Positions 40,843 through 46,706 of a stretch of 64,000 nucleotides of DNA are shown here, piece after piece. This DNA comes from Escherichia phage ECML-10. The translations under genes were made by a program, and so were the position numbers. The notes under the pieces were generated by a model. It searched no databases, was not told the origin of the DNA, and saw only the letters and a list, made by a program, of their open reading frames with translations. Each line of letters opens with the position of its first letter. Positions within the stretch are counted from its first letter, which is position 1. The stretch lies in the sequence record OL631479.1, one strand, 5' to 3'.

Positions 40843-41148
40843 ATGGCTAAATCTAAAGTTGAACTGTTCACCTCTCTTCCTTCTGACACTGCAGAGCGTG
40901 ATCGCCTTCGCAAAACAATCGAAGAACTGGTGGAACTCCAACTTCAGATTAAAGATCTGAAAGATGCCATCAAGGATATCATTCTTGTTGAGAAGCAGGA
41001 TCATCTGTATTCTCCTAAATTCATCAAATCTCTGGTGGCTACCGAGTTCGATATTCGATATGAGGCTGAAAAACGTCGAGCTAAAATCGAAGAAGAGGTT
41101 GAGCACATGTCCGAGGCAGACATTCTGTTCAAACGCTCTGTAGAATAA
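40843..41148 (+). CDS. hypothetical protein, predicted coiled coil
   Basis: SD AAGGAGA; charged heptad-like sequence. Confidence 0.5.
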   Translation: MAKSKVELFTSLPSDTAERDRLRKTIEELVELQLQIKDLKDAIKDIILVEKQDHLYSPKFIKSLVATEFDIRYEAEKRRAKIEEEVEHMSEADILFKRSVE

Positions 41149-41203: not shown

Positions 41204-41530
41204 ATGGGTATACCGATCACTGTAAAAGAATTGAATGAACGTGATGCAGGTGGTCTATGGCCTGCACGAAAAATACGCTGCGTCTACATGAAAGAGAACC
41301 TTGAACATCTTGATCAACAGATCAAGGTCGGTGATATTTTCGAGGTCTTCTATTCCAATCGTCGCAACTGGGAAACCATTCAGCCTTCTGGTTTTGTTCT
41401 TGCCAAACTTGACACTGGAGAAGTGATTATCCCAGGGTTGGATATTGTCTTCGAAATTATCCAGGAGTGGGATCCGGATAAGATTAGATATGAAGAGTTA
41501 TTCGGTGAAGGTATTATCAAACCTGTGTGA
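41204..41530 (+). CDS. hypothetical protein (108 aa)
   Basis: ORF track; SD AAGGAGA. Confidence 0.5.
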   Translation: MGIPITVKELNERDAGGLWPARKIRCVYMKENLEHLDQQIKVGDIFEVFYSNRRNWETIQPSGFVLAKLDTGEVIIPGLDIVFEIIQEWDPDKIRYEELFGEGIIKPV

Positions 41531-41538
41531 GGTGGATT

Positions 41539-41838
41539 ATGTCTACAAAGACGGCTAAATACTCCTACATGCCATCAACCTCTGCAGAGGTAGATTTTAG
41601 TTTCGATGTGTTTCCACTGTTTGAGGTGGTTCTGGCATACCCAACAATACTATCTACTCCGGAATCACTTGTGCCTGTTAAGTTGCAGAACGCCATGCAT
41701 TCTATGCACTACAACAATAAATGCAGGCACAGATGGTGTCAGGACGAGGAAAAAGATCTGGATAGTTTGAGAGATTTTGACAGTCACCTTTTGACACCTT
41801 TCAGCTACTCCAACCTTGATAAGCCATCATGGGTATAG
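41539..41838 (+). CDS. hypothetical protein
   Basis: Start moved to ATG 41539 (SD GAGGTGG). Confidence 0.45.
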   Translation: MSTKTAKYSYMPSTSAEVDFSFDVFPLFEVVLAYPTILSTPESLVPVKLQNAMHSMHYNNKCRHRWCQDEEKDLDSLRDFDSHLLTPFSYSNLDKPSWV

Positions 41839-41862
41839 CAAAATATCAAATTTAAGACACCT

Positions 41863-41890
41863 AGGACGCTCTGTGGCGTCCTTTTCTTTA
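41863..41890 (+). terminator. rho-independent terminator
   Basis: GGACGC-TCTGTG-GCGTCC followed by TTTTCTTT. Confidence 0.6.
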
Positions 41891-42051
41891 TCTGGTGCAC
41901 GATTGCATACCTTGGACAGATAATCTCCTTACAGAGCGTTTAAGAGCTTCCTACAAACAACTCTCTTTTTCGAGCGTAGCGAGAACGCACGTCCGTTTTG
42001 ACCCAAATCCCCATACGCTCGGATTTTAACCAAACCCTCGCGGCGTTTCTA

Positions 42052-42080
42052 TTGACACATTACCGCTCCAGTGATAGTAT
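42052..42080 (+). promoter_or_regulatory. sigma70-type promoter (TTGACA-17-TAGTAT)
   Basis: -35 at 42052-42057, -10 at 42075-42080. Confidence 0.45.
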
Positions 42081-42198
42081 CCACACATAGTTTGTAGAAT
42101 ATGGAATACACAATGAGAACATTGTCCGAAGTTTTAGTAGTGATCCTGATGATCATTACGTCCATAGCGGCTGTTGCCGGAATACTCACGGGTGGAAC

Positions 42199-42411
42199 AT
42201 GATCAACACGCATGCACCTGAAGAGACATCCGAAGGAGTGACCATATGTCCATTGTCTGAGCCAGTGAAAGAGGAAAACTTCGATTCTGAAGATTCTCCA
42301 TCTTCGCTCCAGGTAGATCCTGAGGCTGATGACCTAACGTGGGAAGACATCGTAGACATCTGGTTCTCCATTATGCCTGAGCACGAAGAGTTCAGAGGTG
42401 GTAGACTATGA
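42199..42411 (+). CDS. hypothetical acidic protein (70 aa)
   Basis: ORF track; weak SD. Confidence 0.4.
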   Translation: MINTHAPEETSEGVTICPLSEPVKEENFDSEDSPSSLQVDPEADDLTWEDIVDIWFSIMPEHEEFRGGRL

Positions 42412-42532
42412 AGCACCGAGCCCACACAGGTTCCTCATGCTAAAGCATGGCCTGAAGAGGCAAACGTGTATAATTCCAGTGCATTGGAACGTATAAAACC
42501 CTGTTCACACTCTCATTTCCAGAGGAGATTTC

Positions 42533-42748
42533 ATGAAGATAGAAATATTTGGTGGAGCTGACAACACTCGTGGCCTGATTTACCTTGAATTCGATGAAAC
42601 ATACCTGCCAGAGGTGTTAAATATAGACTCTGTTGCTGAGGCTTTGGGAGTAAACCCTAAAGAACTCCACTCTTGTGCTGAGATCGATGGTTGGGAAGAG
42701 ACCATGAACATTGATTTCAGTGAAGTAGAGGATGAACCGCTGGACTGA
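42533..42748 (+). CDS. small acidic protein, MK(V/I)K family member
   Basis: MKIEIFGG start; SD GGAGA. Confidence 0.5.
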   Translation: MKIEIFGGADNTRGLIYLEFDETYLPEVLNIDSVAEALGVNPKELHSCAEIDGWEETMNIDFSEVEDEPLD

Positions 42749-44329
42749 CACACAATTAGCTGCCCGGCTAAAGTGCTGGAAGCACCTATAACACATCTTT
42801 CAACTAAATTTCCCACCACCACAATCACTTACCTCCCACACATGACTGTTTGCTTGTTTAGTGAGCAGTCATGCCTTGACATTCTTGCCTATCCTGATAA
42901 AATTAAGTTCTTCTCTTTTCTTTTACCGAGTAATTCGGGTTTTCTGTTCTCTTCGGTTTGAAGGGGTATGGAGATACACCTGAGTGAACAGGGTGAACAA
43001 CCGAACATTTGGCTATGGCATTAGCATGGCGAAGCGGACGGGTGACGAAAGAGGGGCCGGAGGACACCAGTCACTGCCATATGATATATGGGTGATAACC
43101 TGAAGAGTCTGAATAAGTGTTTAAGTACCAGTCAGAGGAAAAGGTGAATGGTAGCCGAAGGGGGAGGGGGTTTCTTGTATCTTTAATTTGTATATTATGT
43201 ATACATTCGTAAACCAATCTCATCTGAATCTGTTTACCACACAAAGTGGATAGAGACAAATATTACCTATTAAACTTGAATTATTTATAGAAAATACTAC
43301 AACACTACTTAAGTATTTGATTTTACACACAAATCCTGCAGATATTCACCCCCCATATTTAACATACTTGTAACATATTCCATACTCTACCTGACCGATC
43401 AACTCACCCAACTACATCCTCCATATTTCCCCTGTCTGTACTACCCCTGCCCAGCCGGGAGTCCCGTCATATCTGGCTTTCCAGCAAATATCACACCCAC
43501 AAATATCATTGCCTGAAGAGGGTTTCATCCCATAATACATGCCTTACCTGAAGAGCGCTTCATATACCCCGTAAATTTTTTAATTGACACCCTCCCCGCC
43601 GCCGGAGGGGGTTGGCTTTTCCCACACAGACCCGAAGAGCCAGCCAGAAATATCTGAACAGGTCCAGCTATGCCACGATTTTGACCTGACCTACAGGAGT
43701 GCTTCCCTGTCAGGAGCCGGTAGCGACTGGAGTGCTGCCAGGCGGACGAAATGGGAATACTTCTCATTCTTATAATAATTCTCAAATATCGAGGCAGTGA
43801 GGCAAATTAATAGGTGAGGCCGTTCACACAGTGGCACAACATTTGCAACCTATCTTGTGTGGGGGAATGAGAATACCTATCATTGTGAGAATAGTTATCA
43901 TTACGGGCAATTTAACATAATACCCATTATGCGCACCACTGGCGATCCATACAGGGATTGATAACATGAGTTACTGTTTATGCATATAACAATTATATTT
44001 CTTACTATTTGTGTGGGATATAGTTAGCAGCCAATAGATTAGATATTGACCTGTAGACTTCTGACCGTCCAGACGTCTAAACGCCCACACAACAAGGCTT
44101 ATACATACATCGCTGAATGTAAACAGGGCCGCAAAAATGCTACCATACCAGATTGTAAATTTTTCATACAGCACTTGACAAAGAGGAGAAAAACTTGTCT
44201 GACACTTTAGACACAATAGTGACATAATGGTGACACACTGGGCATACTCAACACACTGGATACAATAACAGTTGTTACTATTGCATGCTTCACTGTTCAC
44301 GTATAGATTGTTTACACAGAGATGATAAG

Positions 44330-44620
44330 CCATGCCATTCGTTTGCATGACAATAATTAACTTGTTTACAATCTTTCACTGGCTATGCCAGGTGACCTTT
44401 GGTCACCCCTTCGGGTGTTTCTATGACATAATATAAAAGCAGGGCAACTATTAGAAGATCTATAGTTGCCTTGCTTGTTATGTCACGATTAACTAAATAC
44501 AAGGCAACTATGATCTGATTAATAGTTTGCAGACAAACTATCACGGGGGTGATGGTTACTGCTTTTATATTATGTCGCGACTCCGTCGCGCCATGCCATT
44601 CGTTTGCATAGTTGCCTTAT
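44330..44620. repeat. complex of direct and inverted repeats (GGCAACTAT iterons, 18-bp inverted pair, CCATTCGTTTGCAT direct pair)
   Basis: GGCAACTAT/ATAGTTGCC four times; GACATAATATAAAAGCAG at 44424-44441 with reverse complement at 44561-44578; CCATTCGTTTGCAT at about 44334 and 44596. Confidence 0.55.
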
Positions 44621-45234
44621 TGTTACGAATAAAACAATTGCATTGTTAATGATTTCTTATCTTTCTCTTAGTCATCTAATGATTCCAGTCAGTATAGTAA
44701 TGTACAGTAAACATTAGACGACTAAAGATTTCTCTGTTTATTATAACTCACCGTTATAATTTCGAGCTGTTTACGAAAAATGTTGACATCCTAGCCGATT
44801 TATGTTATGCAGTTTACACGAATAATTATTTTATGCAGGTATTGACTATTCCGTTATTCTATGGTTGGAATAAATACTTAGCAGGCTATAGACTGGTGAG
44901 CGTACGTAAATTCTGAGATCTGGCGGCTATAGTTATACTCGATTTTTCACGTAGAACACGCTTTTGTGGTTATGTAAGTGCATGAATTATAAGAATTTTT
45001 ATTTGTTGACAAGATATTGAAGATATGCATCAGGTTAAAATTTATGCAATAGCGGCATTACGTGCAATTTTGGAAGGAAAAGCGTGTAAAAATGGCCCTG
45101 CTACCACACAATGAAAGGTTATGCAATAGCTATTTTACATGTATATTTGTACAGTGTGTGGGATTGATGGCTCGTCAATTATTCCACTTGCCAGGTAGGG
45201 CCGTTTGTGGTAGGAAAAGAGAAGACAAAAAGAA

Positions 45235-45251
45235 AGGGGCTTTAAGCCCCT
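45235..45251 (-). terminator. rho-independent terminator for minus-strand block
   Basis: AGGGGC-TTTAA-GCCCCT; minus-strand reading is followed by TTTCTTTTT. Confidence 0.55.
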
Positions 45252-45270
45252 GACCGTTCATCTTGTTGTA

Positions 45271-45534
45271 TTATTTGTTGCTCATCCAGTTTTCCCAAGC
45301 TGCCTGATAATCTGCCTCACTACGGCGGATCTCTTCTTGTTCTTCAAGTCGGATCTCTTCTTCCAGGTACCCCAAGATGTCAGCCTTTTTGGTCTGGCGT
45401 AGCATCCAGTCATCTTTTTTGCGGGTAAAGATCTTATAAGCTTTCTCGCAAACCTCTTTTTTGCTACCTTTCTGGACTTCCAGAACACGATAAGCCATAT
45501 ATTGAACTAGTTTGAGCTGGTCAAGACGTTTCAT
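45271..45534 (-). CDS. hypothetical protein (87 aa)
   Basis: SD AAAGAGGAAAAA before ATG 45534. Confidence 0.55.
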   Translation of the reverse strand: MKRLDQLKLVQYMAYRVLEVQKGSKKEVCEKAYKIFTRKKDDWMLRQTKKADILGYLEEEIRLEEQEEIRRSEADYQAAWENWMSNK

Positions 45535-45596
45535 GATGTTTTTCCTCTTTATGTGGTTTTTGTTCAGTGGGCCTTTTGGCCCGTGTCATTATCTTA

Positions 45597-45869
45597 TTAC
45601 TTACGGCGGCAGAATTCAAGCGTTTTTAATTGATAATCTTCCTCAGCCTGGAGTACAACCGCCTCGATCATTTCGTTGGCATTGTTGAAGCCATACCCTT
45701 TAGCGAACTCATCCGCACCACCTTCGTGATCATGTTCTGCGTTCATCGCTTCCACGAAATGGAATTCAAGATTATTGAGATAAGGGCTTGATGTTCCGTC
45801 CTCTTTTTCGATGAGATCCCAAATAGCATTAAAACGTGATTCGACTTCTTGATTAATCCAGCTTGACAT
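45597..45869 (-). CDS. hypothetical acidic protein (90 aa)
   Basis: SD GAGAGGAAAA before ATG 45869. Confidence 0.55.
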   Translation of the reverse strand: MSSWINQEVESRFNAIWDLIEKEDGTSSPYLNNLEFHFVEAMNAEHDHEGGADEFAKGYGFNNANEMIEAVVLQAEEDYQLKTLEFCRRK

Positions 45870-46080
45870 AATGTTTTCCTCTCTTCTGGTTGTTGTGTGG
45901 GCACTTTTGCCCCTTCAAGATAAATGTTACCCCACCACCTGGCAGATGTCAACGGTTTTTATAGTTCTTATATGACAGGCAGGCCCGGTGATTGTCTCCC
46001 CCCGTCGCCAGGTGCCTGCCGTGTAATAAGTATAACAAAAAACAGGACCATTGCAAGCCCTGTTTTCTAGTTAATAAGGA

Positions 46081-46272
46081 TTATATTTTTTCGCCTATGT
46101 AGTCCGGTCGGTTTTTCTCTGTCATGCGCTTTAGCAATTCTTGCATGTTACTTATGGCTTGTAGTGTATCCTCTTCCAGACTTGAATCAACATAATCAGG
46201 ATCGTCTATGACCTTTCTATGATTATGATAACGCAGTACCGCCAATACCTTTCTAACTTGTTCAACATTCAT
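46081..46272 (-). CDS. hypothetical protein (63 aa)
   Basis: ORF track; weak SD. Confidence 0.45.
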   Translation of the reverse strand: MNVEQVRKVLAVLRYHNHRKVIDDPDYVDSSLEEDTLQAISNMQELLKRMTEKNRPDYIGEKI

Positions 46273-46421
46273 TTTTATCGCTCTTTAAAACAAGGTGCCA
46301 ACCGTTTCTAGTAGATCACTGACCACCAGGACAATACTGATCAGCACATATCTAACCATAAGGGGAAAGAGCGCCAGCGATCCCGCCACAATCCCCAAGG
46401 TAATGATTATCTTTTTCACGG

Positions 46422-46706
46422 TTAACGGTTAACGTAAGCTTTACCGTTCACGGTTATGGGTAGATCCTCCAGGTCTGGATCTTCCTTAAGGTCGCGAGCA
46501 AGCTCACCGCACCGGATACCCTCGAATCCGTAGTACTCTGTTGTACCGTCATTAAAAGTTTTAGCGGCAAGGCATAAGCGATAAGTAACCCCGATTTGAT
46601 TGACGGCATGGATATCCGTTAGATCAACCTCTTTTGCCAGCTCTTTAGCCATTACAGGCGCATTAAGTCCAACAACCAGGGCAACTACTGCGATCATCTT
46701 TTTCAT
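46422..46706 (-). CDS. secreted/periplasmic small protein (signal peptide)
   Basis: MKKMIAVVALVVGLNAPVMAKE signal-peptide-like N-terminus; SD AGAGGA. Confidence 0.55.
   Translation of the reverse strand: MKKMIAVVALVVGLNAPVMAKELAKEVDLTDIHAVNQIGVTYRLCLAAKTFNDGTTEYYGFEGIRCGELARDLKEDPDLEDLPITVNGKAYVNR

What the first reader, a model, noticed from the sequence alone, without database searches (positions are those of the whole stretch)
42750..45250. 2.5-kb gene-poor strand-switch region with a G-poor tract and several hairpins
Between the last plus-strand gene (ends 42748) and the first minus-strand gene (45271) there is no credible ORF; track ORFs here are low-complexity. Positions about 43330-43480 are almost devoid of G on the plus strand, which gives G-runs on the minus strand. 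A hairpin CCCTCC-CCGCCGCC-GGAGGG followed by a T-rich stretch at about 43594-43630 could terminate plus-strand transcription. Gene deserts are rare in phages, so this region probably holds replication, packaging or noncoding-RNA functions.
Basis: seen in the sequence. Interest (0 to 1): 0.6.

Follow-up and report, generated by a model that had tools for sequence, protein, structure and literature searches.

The report
Phage chromosome ends and terminal repeat
The 2.5-kb gene-free stretch is where the two physical ends of this rV5-like coliphage chromosome meet through one copy of a 459-bp terminal repeat; this is largely known biology, but beside the repeat lie an almost invariant promoter-driven non-coding element and a 152-nt palindrome that I found described nowhere.

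Summary
Window 42749-45270 has no conserved ORF, contains the most G-depleted 150 nt of the 64 kb, and carries a weak hairpin at 43590-43609.

The window is a Vequintavirus (rV5-like E. coli myovirus). Its two gene clusters converge on this region.

Eight or more GenBank genomes from at least five sources open exactly at window-equivalent 43741. Four of them carry 43741-44199 at both ends. Korf 2019 reports a 458-bp terminal redundancy for this genus. Klebsiella phage KPP-1, from a sister genus, has its 514-bp repeat in the same kind of convergent desert, with matching boundary motifs. So the desert is the chromosome-end and concatemer-junction region.

Three further features are uncharacterised:
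- A block at 42800-43172 is about 99% identical across relatives whose flanks differ by 5-15%. It has a strong sigma-70 promoter and ends at a G5AG5 run unique in the window.
- A 152-nt palindrome at 44425-44576 folds far better than shuffles (z about -9).
- Arrays of short repeats right of the repeat vary in copy number between relatives.

Rfam gives no match and covariation is inconclusive.

The parts
42840..42872 (+). Hairpin CATGACTG-N17-CAGTCATG just upstream of the promoter -35. It lies inside the conserved block and could be a terminator or operator for the + gene cluster.
   Evidence: Read directly from the sequence. Near-invariant in relatives, including the divergent L028 and L043.
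42876..42903 (+). Sigma-70 promoter TTGACA-16-(TG)TAAAAT, matching 11 of 12 positions with an extended -10.
   Evidence: Best promoter match in 42000-46000. Both hexamers are kept in all relatives, while the spacer changed by several bases and grew from 16 to 18 nt in L006 and L046-49.
42909..43172 (+). Ultraconserved non-coding block, a candidate transcript of about 263 nt (ncRNA or primer RNA). It starts with a CU-rich 5' tract and ends in a G-run.
   Evidence: 97-99.7% identical in 118 records. Only 4 differences in 360 nt in contig L028, whose flanks are 84-88% identical. Conservation stops sharply at 43172. No ORF with a coding signature, no Rfam match, no E. coli genome match. MFE -87.5 kcal/mol, z -1.8 on + and z -0.7 on -.
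43160..43170 (+). G5AG5 double G-run followed by TTT, at the 3' edge of the conserved block.
   Evidence: The only G4+NG4+ motif on either strand of the 64-kb window, with 0.32 expected per strand. Run lengths vary among relatives (G5AG6, G6AG6, G5ATG5-6). It is kept in lineage L043, where the middle of the block is replaced.
43173..43330 (.). AT-rich spacer (about 31% GC) that is less conserved and carries indels.
43280..43480 (+). C-rich, G-poor tract, which gives G-runs on the - strand.
   Evidence: Lowest-G window of the 64 kb. The homologous start and C6 run are present in KPP-1 just left of its repeat.
43486..43563 (+). Two AAATATCA boxes (43486, 43501) and two copies of TTRCCTGAAGAGSGYTTCAT (43509, 43544).
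   Evidence: KPP-1 has a same-orientation pair of AAATATC boxes at -102 and -85 from its cut.
43590..43609 (+).
43741..44199 (.). Direct terminal repeat, 459 bp. Base 43741 is the first base of the virion DNA and 44199 the last.
   Evidence: EdH4, YN3, ECP2309 and Gotham carry it at both ends. bov11CS3, bov25_3, Pr121LW and Aya open exactly on it. Korf 2019 reports a 458-bp terminal redundancy. The CM1 tandem duplication starts at the same base.
43729..43748 (+). Left end motif GGAGTGCTGCCA|GGCGGACG.
   Evidence: Same cut position relative to GTGCT..A|GRCGGAC in KPP-1, whose ends were determined independently.
43784..43790 (+). AAATATC box 43 bp inside the left end.
   Evidence: Same offset (+43) in KPP-1.
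43865..43902 (.). Two adjacent palindromic sites, AATGAGAATACCTATCATT and TGAGAATAGTTATCATT, with a third weaker copy at 43752-43768. Likely sites for a dimeric DNA-binding protein.
   Evidence: The same motif occurs inside and right of the KPP-1 repeat.
44152..44181 (-). Leftward promoter-like site TTGTCA-18-TACAAT at the inner edge of the repeat.
   Evidence: KPP-1 has TTGTCA-18-TACAAA at the same place with a diverged spacer.
44173..44199 (+). Right end motif CTTGACAAAGAGGAGAAAAACTTGTC|.
   Evidence: KPP-1 has CTTGACAAGGAGAGAGAATTGTGTT| at the right edge of its repeat.
44200..44328 (.). Array of GACAY and TT(T/C)AC(A/G) short repeats whose copy number varies.
   Evidence: Length is 112-228 nt in 26 relatives, with 2-6 and 1-8 copies respectively. 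It is among the least conserved parts of the region. TGTTTAC occurs 6 times against 0.34 expected.
44329..44348 (+). Perfect 20-nt direct repeat GCCATGCCATTCGTTTGCAT, copy 1. Copy 2 is at 44590-44609. The two copies flank the palindrome.
44425..44576 (.). 152-nt extended palindrome. An 18-bp perfect outer stem encloses nested GGCAACTAT inverted repeats and a side hairpin.
   Evidence: MFE z -8.8 (+ RNA), -9.1 (- RNA) and -9.4 (DNA). Paired positions are nearly invariant in relatives; variation falls mainly in loops and bulges.
44590..44609 (+). Copy 2 of the 20-nt direct repeat.
44780..45150 (.). AT-rich zone with TTGACA boxes (44783, 44841 as TTGACT, 45005) and TTATGCA repeats. 44800-44850 is 99.9% conserved.
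   Evidence: TTGACAAGAT...TATGC is shared with KPP-1.
45235..45251 (-). Intrinsic terminator of the - gene cluster, AGGGGCTTAAAGCCCCT followed by a T run.
   Evidence: Annotated as a terminator in EdH4, Gotham and Murica.

Best explanation
The gene desert is the chromosome-end region of a vequintavirus.

Shown from relatives: virion DNA is linear with fixed ends. It starts at window base 43741 and ends at 44199 of the next unit, so the 459 bp 43741-44199 sit at both ends as a direct terminal repeat. In this assembly the two ends are joined through one copy, as in a replicative concatemer junction. The two flanking clusters of small genes are transcribed outward towards the ends, which is why no genes lie here.

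Inferred: terminase recognises conserved sequences at the two boundaries (...GTGCT..A|GRCGGAC on the left, CTTGACAA-N14-TTGTC| on the right) and nearby boxes. It cuts there, and the repeat is duplicated during packaging as in T7-type phages.

Inferred and untested: the rest of the 2.5 kb is cis-acting DNA serving the ends.
- The C-rich, G-poor tract and the weak hairpin stop + strand transcription before the junction.
- Palindromic operator-like sites and a leftward promoter lie inside the repeat.
- A variable repeat array and a 152-nt palindrome lie just inside the left end.
- A strong host-type promoter drives a roughly 263-nt ultraconserved non-coding transcript that ends at a G5AG5 run followed by an AT-rich stretch. 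This may act as a stable RNA or as a transcription-made primer.
For: Identity and layout:
- The window is 91-95% identical to 121 vequintavirus records.
- The region equals the rV5 'non-coding' box between convergent units.

Fixed ends:
- EdH4 and YN3 start at GGCGGACG (43741) and end at ...AACTTGTC (44199), with the 459 bp at both ends.
- In a half-sample of 119 records, ECP2309, Gotham, bov11CS3, bov25_3, Pr121LW and Aya also open exactly there.
- Gotham annotates 1-459 as a repeat_region.
- Korf 2019 reports 'short terminal redundancies of 458 bp' for EdH4 and HdK5.
- CM1 has a perfect tandem duplication that begins at the same base.

Sister genus:
- KPP-1 has a 514-bp repeat with twofold coverage and T7-type packaging by PhageTerm.
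- That repeat also lies in a convergent, gene-poor 1.8 kb.
- The boundary motifs, the +43 AAATATC box and the edge promoter are shared.

No coding signal in the desert.

Strong constraint on non-coding parts.
Against: - No reads or virion DNA of this particular phage were available, so its own ends are inferred from relatives 93-97% identical.
- Two papers report PhageTerm calls of 'circularly permuted' or headful packaging for vequintaviruses, and the rV5 paper treats these genomes as permuted.
- The CM1 duplicated unit is 523 bp, not 459 bp.
- Nothing here shows which protein binds which motif.
- Transcription of the conserved block is not shown. Covariation for an RNA fold does not exceed controls.
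Confidence: 0.8

Rival explanations
1. Headful packaging from a pac site. The genome would be circularly permuted, the 459-bp 'repeat' would be an artefact of how some records were opened, and the desert would hold only a pac site or nothing specific.
For: PhageTerm 'circular permutated' for the bov phages. 'Headful, partial circular permutation' for BpE1AUH. The rV5 paper speaks of circularly permuted genomes. Most GenBank records open elsewhere.
Against: At least 8 records from at least 5 sources share identical end bases, and four carry the repeat twice. Korf 2019 states a 458-bp redundancy. KPP-1 shows twofold coverage. The end motifs are conserved across genera at the same offsets. The revised bov records now open at 43741.
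Confidence: 0.08
2. The conserved block is a transcription-primed replication origin. Host RNA polymerase starts at 42909. The G-rich transcript stalls or forms an R-loop or hybrid G-quadruplex at G5AG5. The phage polymerase and T7-gp4-like helicase-primase then start DNA synthesis in the adjacent AT-rich DNA. This can coexist with the end-region explanation.
For: A strong promoter with conserved hexamers. GC skew of +0.38 in the block, followed by 31% GC DNA. The G5AG5 is unique in the window. The G-run and the first 100 nt are kept where the middle is replaced. Conservation ends right after the G-run. rV5 encodes gp4-like and Pif1-like helicases and has a skew change at the equivalent place. 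Human CSB2 (G5AG7 to G6AG8) works this way.
Against: There are no replication data. In the POLRMT assays, tracts with 10-12 G in total gave almost no termination above the basal level. E. coli RNA polymerase behaviour at such a site is unknown. In KPP-1 the only such motif is on the other strand and elsewhere. The block is absent from KPP-1. 360 bp of near-invariance is more than a primer site needs.
Confidence: 0.2
3. The conserved block encodes a stable trans-acting non-coding RNA, for example for host takeover, anti-defence or packaging. It would lie at the chromosome end only by position.
For: The promoter, a sharp 3' boundary and strand asymmetry of folding. 5 of 7 substitutions at predicted paired sites keep pairing through G-U on the + strand. 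A 14-nt hairpin-like insertion is tolerated in L046-49. The 5' hairpins hold in the divergent lineage.
Against: No Rfam family matches. The covariation term is unfavourable, and 2 of 85 compensatory pairs is no better than slid controls. Fold z is only -1.8. There is no clear intrinsic terminator. No expression data were found in the literature searched.
Confidence: 0.3
4. The desert hides small protein genes, as annotated in PMBT16, Mangalyan, CM1 and APCEc02.
For: Some records annotate 2-13 short CDS here. The window has a 125-aa ORF at 43971..44348.
Against: No ORF in the gap shows third-position bias. Those outside the near-invariant block are broken in a third to all of the relatives scored, and the two short ORFs inside it stay open only because the DNA there hardly varies, while the flanking control genes pass both tests. 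The 125-aa ORF spans the repeat boundary and the variable repeat array.
Confidence: 0.03

Closest known systems
Terminal redundancy of vequintaviruses EdH4 and HdK5 (Korf et al. 2019, PMC6563267) and the 'non-coding' box of rV5 (Kropinski et al. 2013, PMC3606486)
   Same: This is the same element in the same genus. The 459 bp at 43741-44199 are 95% identical to the EdH4 ends. The desert corresponds to rV5 104014-106617.
   Different: Neither paper links the two observations. Neither describes the boundary motifs, the ultraconserved block, the palindrome or the repeat arrays.
Phage T7 concatemer junction and short direct terminal repeat (160 bp)
   Same: Fixed ends and a short direct repeat. 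PhageTerm assigned T7-type packaging to the sister phage KPP-1. From my own knowledge of T7: promoters near both ends (phiOL, phiOR), arrays of short repeats flanking the repeat, and a hairpin intermediate proposed for duplicating the repeat. All of these have look-alikes here.
   Different: This is a 137-kb myovirus. Its promoters are host sigma-70 type, not phage-polymerase type. The repeat is three times longer and there is no sequence similarity. The terminase relationship was not tested. The T7 parallels come from memory and are not tool results.
Klebsiella phage KPP-1 (Mydovirus) 514-bp direct terminal repeat (PMC9862379)
   Same: A convergent gene-poor region containing the repeat. Shared left and right boundary motifs, the AAATATC box at +43, TGAGAAT..TATCATT sites, a C-rich tract before the repeat and the edge promoter TTGTCA-18-TACAAW.
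   Different: It has no homologue of the 42800-43172 block. Its desert is only 1.8 kb. Its double G-run lies on the opposite strand.
Human mitochondrial LSP-CSB2 primer-forming element (PMC3488243, PMC5027508)
   Same: A promoter, then a G-rich transcript, then a G5-6AG5-8 run followed by T residues. Run length is heterogeneous between genomes. The replication proteins are related (gp4/Twinkle-like and Pif1-like helicases in rV5).
   Different: Bacterial multisubunit RNA polymerase instead of a T7-like one. The G-runs are shorter and the spacing is about 250 nt rather than about 120 nt. No functional data exist. This is a resemblance only.
Rho-dependent terminator rut regions
   Same: At least 150 nt of untranslated, C-rich (28%), G-poor (5%) RNA on the + strand, downstream of the last + genes and promoter.
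   Different: Rho dependence was not tested. Part of the tract is conserved in sequence across genera (C6 run plus ATAT), which composition alone would not require.

Membership tests
Short direct-terminal-repeat (fixed-end) phage chromosome | The same sequence is present at both ends of the linear genome. | tested here: met
   EdH4 and YN3 records carry window-equivalent 43741-44199 at both ends. ECP2309 and Gotham also hold two copies. This was shown for relatives 93-97% identical, not for this isolate.
Short direct-terminal-repeat (fixed-end) phage chromosome | The ends fall at the same bases in independent isolates. | tested here: met
   At least 8 records open at exactly the same base. The cut position relative to conserved motifs is the same in KPP-1.
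Short direct-terminal-repeat (fixed-end) phage chromosome | Twofold read coverage over the repeat and read-start pile-ups at the ends. | not testable with these tools
   No reads were available. It is reported for KPP-1. Opposite PhageTerm calls are reported for the bov phages and BpE1AUH.
Short direct-terminal-repeat (fixed-end) phage chromosome | A terminase of the clade that makes short exact repeats. | not tested
   The terminase gene was neither located nor compared.
Headful (pac) circularly permuted genome | No fixed ends, so the ends are spread over the genome. | tested here: not met
   Identical ends in independent records and a repeat at both ends.
Any described RNA family (Rfam 15) | Covariance-model match at or near the gathering score. 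| tested here: not met
   Nothing appeared in 42750-45250 at E<=1. The best hit on the block is 13 bits against a 45-bit threshold. No tRNA or tmRNA was found.
Structured non-coding RNA (generic) | Compensatory base changes that support a fold. | tested here: inconclusive
   2 of 85 pairs have changes on both sides, against 0-3 in slid controls. The covariation term is +2.3. The sequences are too similar to decide.
Intrinsic terminator (hairpin at 43590-43609) | A stable GC-rich stem directly followed by a U tract. | tested here: inconclusive
   6 pairs, an 8-nt loop and the tail GGUUGGCUUUU. In relatives the stem is imperfect, at -7 to -16 kcal/mol.
Rho-dependent terminator (G-poor tract) | A long untranslated C-rich, G-poor RNA segment. 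| tested here: met
   8 G and 42 C in 150 nt, the extreme of the window. There is no conserved ORF.
Rho-dependent terminator (G-poor tract) | Termination depends on Rho. | not testable with these tools
   Needs bicyclomycin or rho-mutant transcript mapping.
CSB2-type G-tract primer or termination element | Two G-runs split by one A on the non-template strand, downstream of a promoter and followed by T. | tested here: met
   GGGGGAGGGGGTTT lies at 43160-43173, 250 nt from the predicted start, and is unique in the window.
CSB2-type G-tract primer or termination element | Forms an R-loop or hybrid quadruplex and primes DNA synthesis. | not testable with these tools
   No experimental data. Tracts of this total length had little effect on POLRMT.
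Iteron-type replication origin | Repeated initiator sites next to an AT-rich unwinding element, with a cognate initiator. | tested here: inconclusive
   Repeat arrays and AT-rich DNA are present. Copy number varies freely and no initiator is known.

The most novel reading that the evidence does not exclude
Vequintaviruses would start DNA replication next to their right chromosome end by a mitochondrion-like route. A host-polymerase transcript from the invariant promoter at 42876 would be converted into a primer at a CSB2-like G5AG5-6 tract. It would then be handled by the phage's T7-gp4-like and Pif1-like helicases. Alternatively, the same roughly 263-nt RNA would be a new class of end-linked phage RNA needed for packaging or host takeover.
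Probability: 0.15. Interest if true: 0.75.

Novelty: new member of a known kind. Interest (0 to 1): 0.42.

Why it matters
- It settles what the 'non-coding' box of rV5-like phages is, and gives the exact end bases. Rebooting, engineering and consistent deposition of these widely used therapeutic and typing phages need those bases, and many GenBank records are opened arbitrarily or called permuted.
- It gives cross-genus boundary motifs that can be mutated to study terminase recognition in a large myovirus with short exact repeats.
- It flags an orphan element that is more conserved than the neighbouring genes compared here. It has a clear promoter and a G-tract like the mitochondrial primer site, so it is a cheap and well-defined target for RNA-seq, deletion and origin mapping.

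Tried and rejected
- tRNA/tmRNA scan of the window: none found.
- Rfam at E<=1 over 41500-46500 and at E<=10 over the block: only chance hits.
- blastn at low stringency against 50,697 phage records: nothing outside Vequintavirus for the region or the block.
- E. coli genomes: no match to the block, so it is not host-derived.
- nhmmer of the block against the KPP-1 end region and two other Vequintavirinae loci: no hit.
- Synteny through the DsbA-like gene in Mydovirus and Seunavirus: gene order differs and there is no desert nearby.
- Pattern scans of IMG/VR with a repeat, a block 20-mer and the right-end motif: only two vequintavirus contigs plus chance coding hits.
- Metagenome scan and homologues of the 71-aa neighbour gene: these yielded the useful divergent lineages L028, L043-45 and L046-49, but still too little variation for covariation.
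- Hidden-gene hypothesis: rejected by the ORF-integrity and codon-position tests.
- Literature search for vequintavirus transcriptomes: nothing found.
- A search for open T7 junction papers gave nothing usable, so the T7 comparisons rest on my own knowledge.
Full report
**What the window is.** The 2.5-kb query matches 121 phage records at 91-95% identity, nearly all Escherichia phages of the genus Vequintavirus (rV5-like myoviruses). In rV5 the region is 104014-106617, between ORF163 (+) and ORF164 (-). The rV5 genome paper draws it as a grey box labelled 'non-coding'. That paper expected bidirectional terminators there but did not find them, and it noted a GC/AT-skew change at 104425-105475. 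So the desert is a long-noticed but unexplained feature of the genus. It lies where two transcription units converge.

**Checking the observation.**
- The last + ORF (42533..42748) and the first - ORF (45271..45534) are real genes. They are intact in 18/19 and 19/20 aligned relatives, and their variable sites concentrate at third codon positions (34/49 and 46/64).
- The ORFs of 39-125 aa inside the gap show no codon-position bias. Those outside the near-invariant block 42800-43172 are also broken in a third to all of the relatives scored. The two short ORFs inside the block stay open, but only because the DNA there hardly varies. The 125-aa ORF could be scored in only three relatives.
- Indels are 15-70 nt long.
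- The G-poor tract is the most extreme in the window. The 150 nt from 43280 hold 8 G and 42 C, against a mean of 33.7 G with sd 6.3.
- The hairpin at 43590-43609 exists but is weak and imperfectly kept in relatives.
- There is no tRNA and no Rfam family.

**The central result: the chromosome ends.** Several GenBank genomes break inside the region, and always at the same two places.
- I fetched both ends of EdH4 (Germany) and YN3 (China). Each record starts with GGCGGACG, which is window 43741. Each ends with ...AAAACTTGTC, which is window 44199. The 459 bp between are present at both ends.
- A search with just these 459 bp listed half of the 119 matching records. ECP2309, Gotham, bov11CS3, bov25_3, Pr121LW and EcoIv14a_Aya also open exactly on this segment.
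- Gotham annotates 1-459 as a repeat region.
- Korf et al. [quoted passage not shown]
- CM1 carries a perfect in-place tandem duplication that begins at the same base, with a 523-bp unit. I29 also holds two tandem copies. I read these as assemblies that kept both repeat copies.

In EdH4 the first genes point to the left end and the last genes point to the right end. This explains the convergent layout in a circularised assembly such as the window.

**Support from a sister genus.** Klebsiella phage KPP-1 (Mydovirus) was reported to have a 514-bp direct terminal repeat with twofold coverage and T7-type packaging by PhageTerm. In its record the repeat again lies in a convergent, gene-poor 1.8 kb. 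Overall similarity is too low for blastn at normal settings, yet the functional-looking pieces line up.

| Feature | Window | KPP-1 |
|---|---|---|
| Left end | GGAGTGCTGCCA\|GGCGGACG | GCGGTGCTA\|GACGGACA |
| Right end | CTTGACAAAGAGGAGAAAAACTTGTC\| | CTTGACAAGGAGAGAGAATTGTGTT\| |
| AAATATC box inside the left end | +43 | +43 |
| Upstream same-orientation box pair | -255 / -240 | -102 / -85 |
| Leftward promoter-like site at the right edge (spacer diverged) | TTGTCA-18-TACAAT | TTGTCA-18-TACAAA |

Both phages also share TGAGAAT..TATCATT palindromic sites, and a C-rich tract with a C6 run just before the repeat. Two independently determined pairs of ends fall at the same offsets from conserved motifs. 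This is the strongest argument that the ends are real and sequence-specified.

**Conflicting reports.** PhageTerm called the bov vequintaviruses 'circular permutated' and BpE1AUH headful. The revised bov records nevertheless open at 43741. I treat headful packaging as an unlikely rival. Only reads from this phage can close the question.

**Anatomy of the rest of the desert.** An alignment of the window with 19 relatives shows a patchwork.
1. *Block 42800-43172.* It is 99-100% conserved while flanking genes are 86-98%. Across 118 records the 341 nt around it are 97-99.7% identical. Contig L028 has a neighbouring gene only about 88% identical and a scrambled downstream sequence, yet differs at just 4 of 360 positions.
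2. *Promoter and limits of the block.* It starts with a hairpin and the best sigma-70 promoter of the region, TTGACA-16-TGnTAAAAT. In L006 and L046-49 the hexamers are kept while the spacer changes and lengthens to 18 nt. This is the signature of a working promoter. Conservation stops abruptly after GGGGGAGGGGGTT at 43172.
3. *Right of the terminal repeat.* A repeat array of 112-228 nt varies in copy number. Two perfect 20-nt direct repeats then flank a 152-nt extended palindrome at 44425-44576. The palindrome folds with z about -9 on either strand and as DNA, and its paired positions are nearly invariant, with variation mainly in loops and bulges.
4. *Right-hand end of the desert.* An AT-rich zone carries TTGACA and TTATGCA repeats. 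A good intrinsic terminator closes the - cluster at 45235-45251.

**The ultraconserved block in more depth.**
- It has no ORF with a coding signature, no Rfam hit, no match in 5,426 E. coli genomes and no counterpart in KPP-1.
- The + strand is purine-rich and folds to -87.5 kcal/mol (z -1.8). The - strand gives z -0.7.
- Homologues of the neighbouring 71-aa protein led me to two divergent lineages. L046-49 carry a 14-nt hairpin-like insertion and a 13-nt duplication inside the block. L043-45 keep the promoter, the first roughly 100 nt and the terminal CCUGAAGGGGGAGGGGGG, but replace and shorten the middle to give about 205 nt.
- Even with these sequences, RNAalifold finds an unfavourable covariation term. 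Only 2 of 85 pairs have compensatory changes, no better than slid controls. A defined RNA fold therefore remains untested.

**The G-tract.** G5AG5 is the only motif of two G-runs of four or more separated by one or two bases on either strand of the 64 kb, with 0.32 expected per strand. Its run lengths vary between isolates. It is followed by T residues and 150 bp of 31% GC DNA.

This is formally like human mitochondrial CSB2 (G5AG7 to G6AG8). There the transcript from the light-strand promoter terminates and forms a hybrid quadruplex or R-loop that yields the replication primer. That effect was also seen with T7 RNA polymerase. rV5 encodes a T7 gp4-like primase-helicase and a Pif1-like helicase.

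I record this as a lead, not a finding. Tracts of this total length had almost no effect on the mitochondrial polymerase, and nothing is known for E. coli RNA polymerase.

**The G-poor tract and the hairpin.** On the + strand the tract would give an untranslated, C-rich, G-poor RNA, which is the composition of Rho loading sites. It sits between the last + promoter and the repeat, and KPP-1 has the equivalent. My reading is that, together with the weak hairpin, it keeps rightward transcription out of the junction. This is inference. On the - strand the same tract gives G-runs, and a leftward promoter-like site at the repeat edge could transcribe it. I could not decide between these readings.

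**How it most likely works.**
- *Shown, from relatives:* the ends are fixed, the repeat is 459 bp, the boundary motifs are conserved, and no genes are present.
- *Inferred from established knowledge of short-repeat phages such as T7:* replication gives concatemers with one repeat per junction. Terminase recognises the junction, cuts at the two boundaries, and the repeat is duplicated during packaging.
- *Speculative:* roles for the palindrome (a hairpin intermediate, origin or terminator), the repeat arrays (protein loading sites) and the conserved block (primer or stable RNA).

**Novelty and score.** The main explanation is already in the literature in scattered form: the non-coding box in 2013, the 458-bp redundancy in 2019, and a repeat_region feature in one GenBank record (Gotham). 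The window is another member of a known kind. New here are four things:
- the link between those observations;
- the exact ends and the cross-genus motifs;
- the ultraconserved promoter-driven block with its CSB2-like tract;
- the palindrome.

Interest is moderate. It would rise sharply if the block proved to be a primer-forming origin or a new functional RNA.

Noticed in passing
window 45253/45271: A 139-aa gene (rV5 ORF164, 420 nt; Murica note 'Rel homology domain') sits between the desert and the 87-aa gene in most relatives. It is absent from the window, and also from nimi, APCEc02, EdH4 and PMBT16. This is a roughly 570-nt presence/absence polymorphism at the desert edge.
   Followed up: partly
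GenBank MG0656xx records (hits H1, H12, H18 and others): 18-19 records named 'Campylobacter phage' with host C. jejuni are 91-97% identical to E. coli vequintaviruses across this region. The host label looks doubtful.
   Followed up: no
window 42835, 43621, 44084 (+); 43856, 44010, 45155 (-); also 45894, 50188, 1700, 1991 (-) and 42081 (+): The motif CCCACACA occurs 6 times in the desert against 0.34 expected. Elsewhere CCACACA(A) follows -10-like boxes or terminator hairpins and precedes ribosome-binding sites. It may mark transcript starts or processing sites.
   Followed up: partly
relatives, at window-equivalent 42755, 43589, about 43715 and 44477: Small palindromic insertions of 15-70 nt come and go between isolates, like miniature mobile hairpins. 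Examples are ACCTGCTTCACAGGT, CCGAAGGGTCTAGCTTTCAGCTAGAG and TTAACATCCTCGAGACGAAGGCTATGCCTGAGT.
   Followed up: no
L010 (Shigella phage CM1) 3031-4076; ON286975 (I29) 104224-105275: These records contain the terminal repeat as an in-place tandem duplication. In CM1 it is a perfect 523-bp unit that starts at the exact left-end base. It is probably both repeat copies kept by the assembler. The extra 64 bp in CM1 are unexplained.
   Followed up: partly
L032 (Klebsiella phage KPP-1) 4672-4684, - strand: The only double G-run in this 10-kb locus (G5AAG6) lies 133-145 nt left of the KPP-1 terminal repeat. It is on the opposite strand from the window's G5AG5 and downstream of the conserved leftward edge promoter.
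   Followed up: partly
window 45955-46090 (-): A weak Rfam hit to yeast snoRNA snR9 (26.5 bits against a 58-bit threshold, E 0.44), which I take as chance.
   Followed up: no
window 40843-41148 (+): This 101-aa protein is 99-100% conserved across nearly all vequintavirus records (98% in ECP26) and 42-58% identical in Mydovirus, Seunavirus and Certrevirus. Some records annotate it as a DsbA-like transcriptional regulator or dsDNA-binding protein. Its neighbourhood is not syntenic between genera.
   Followed up: partly
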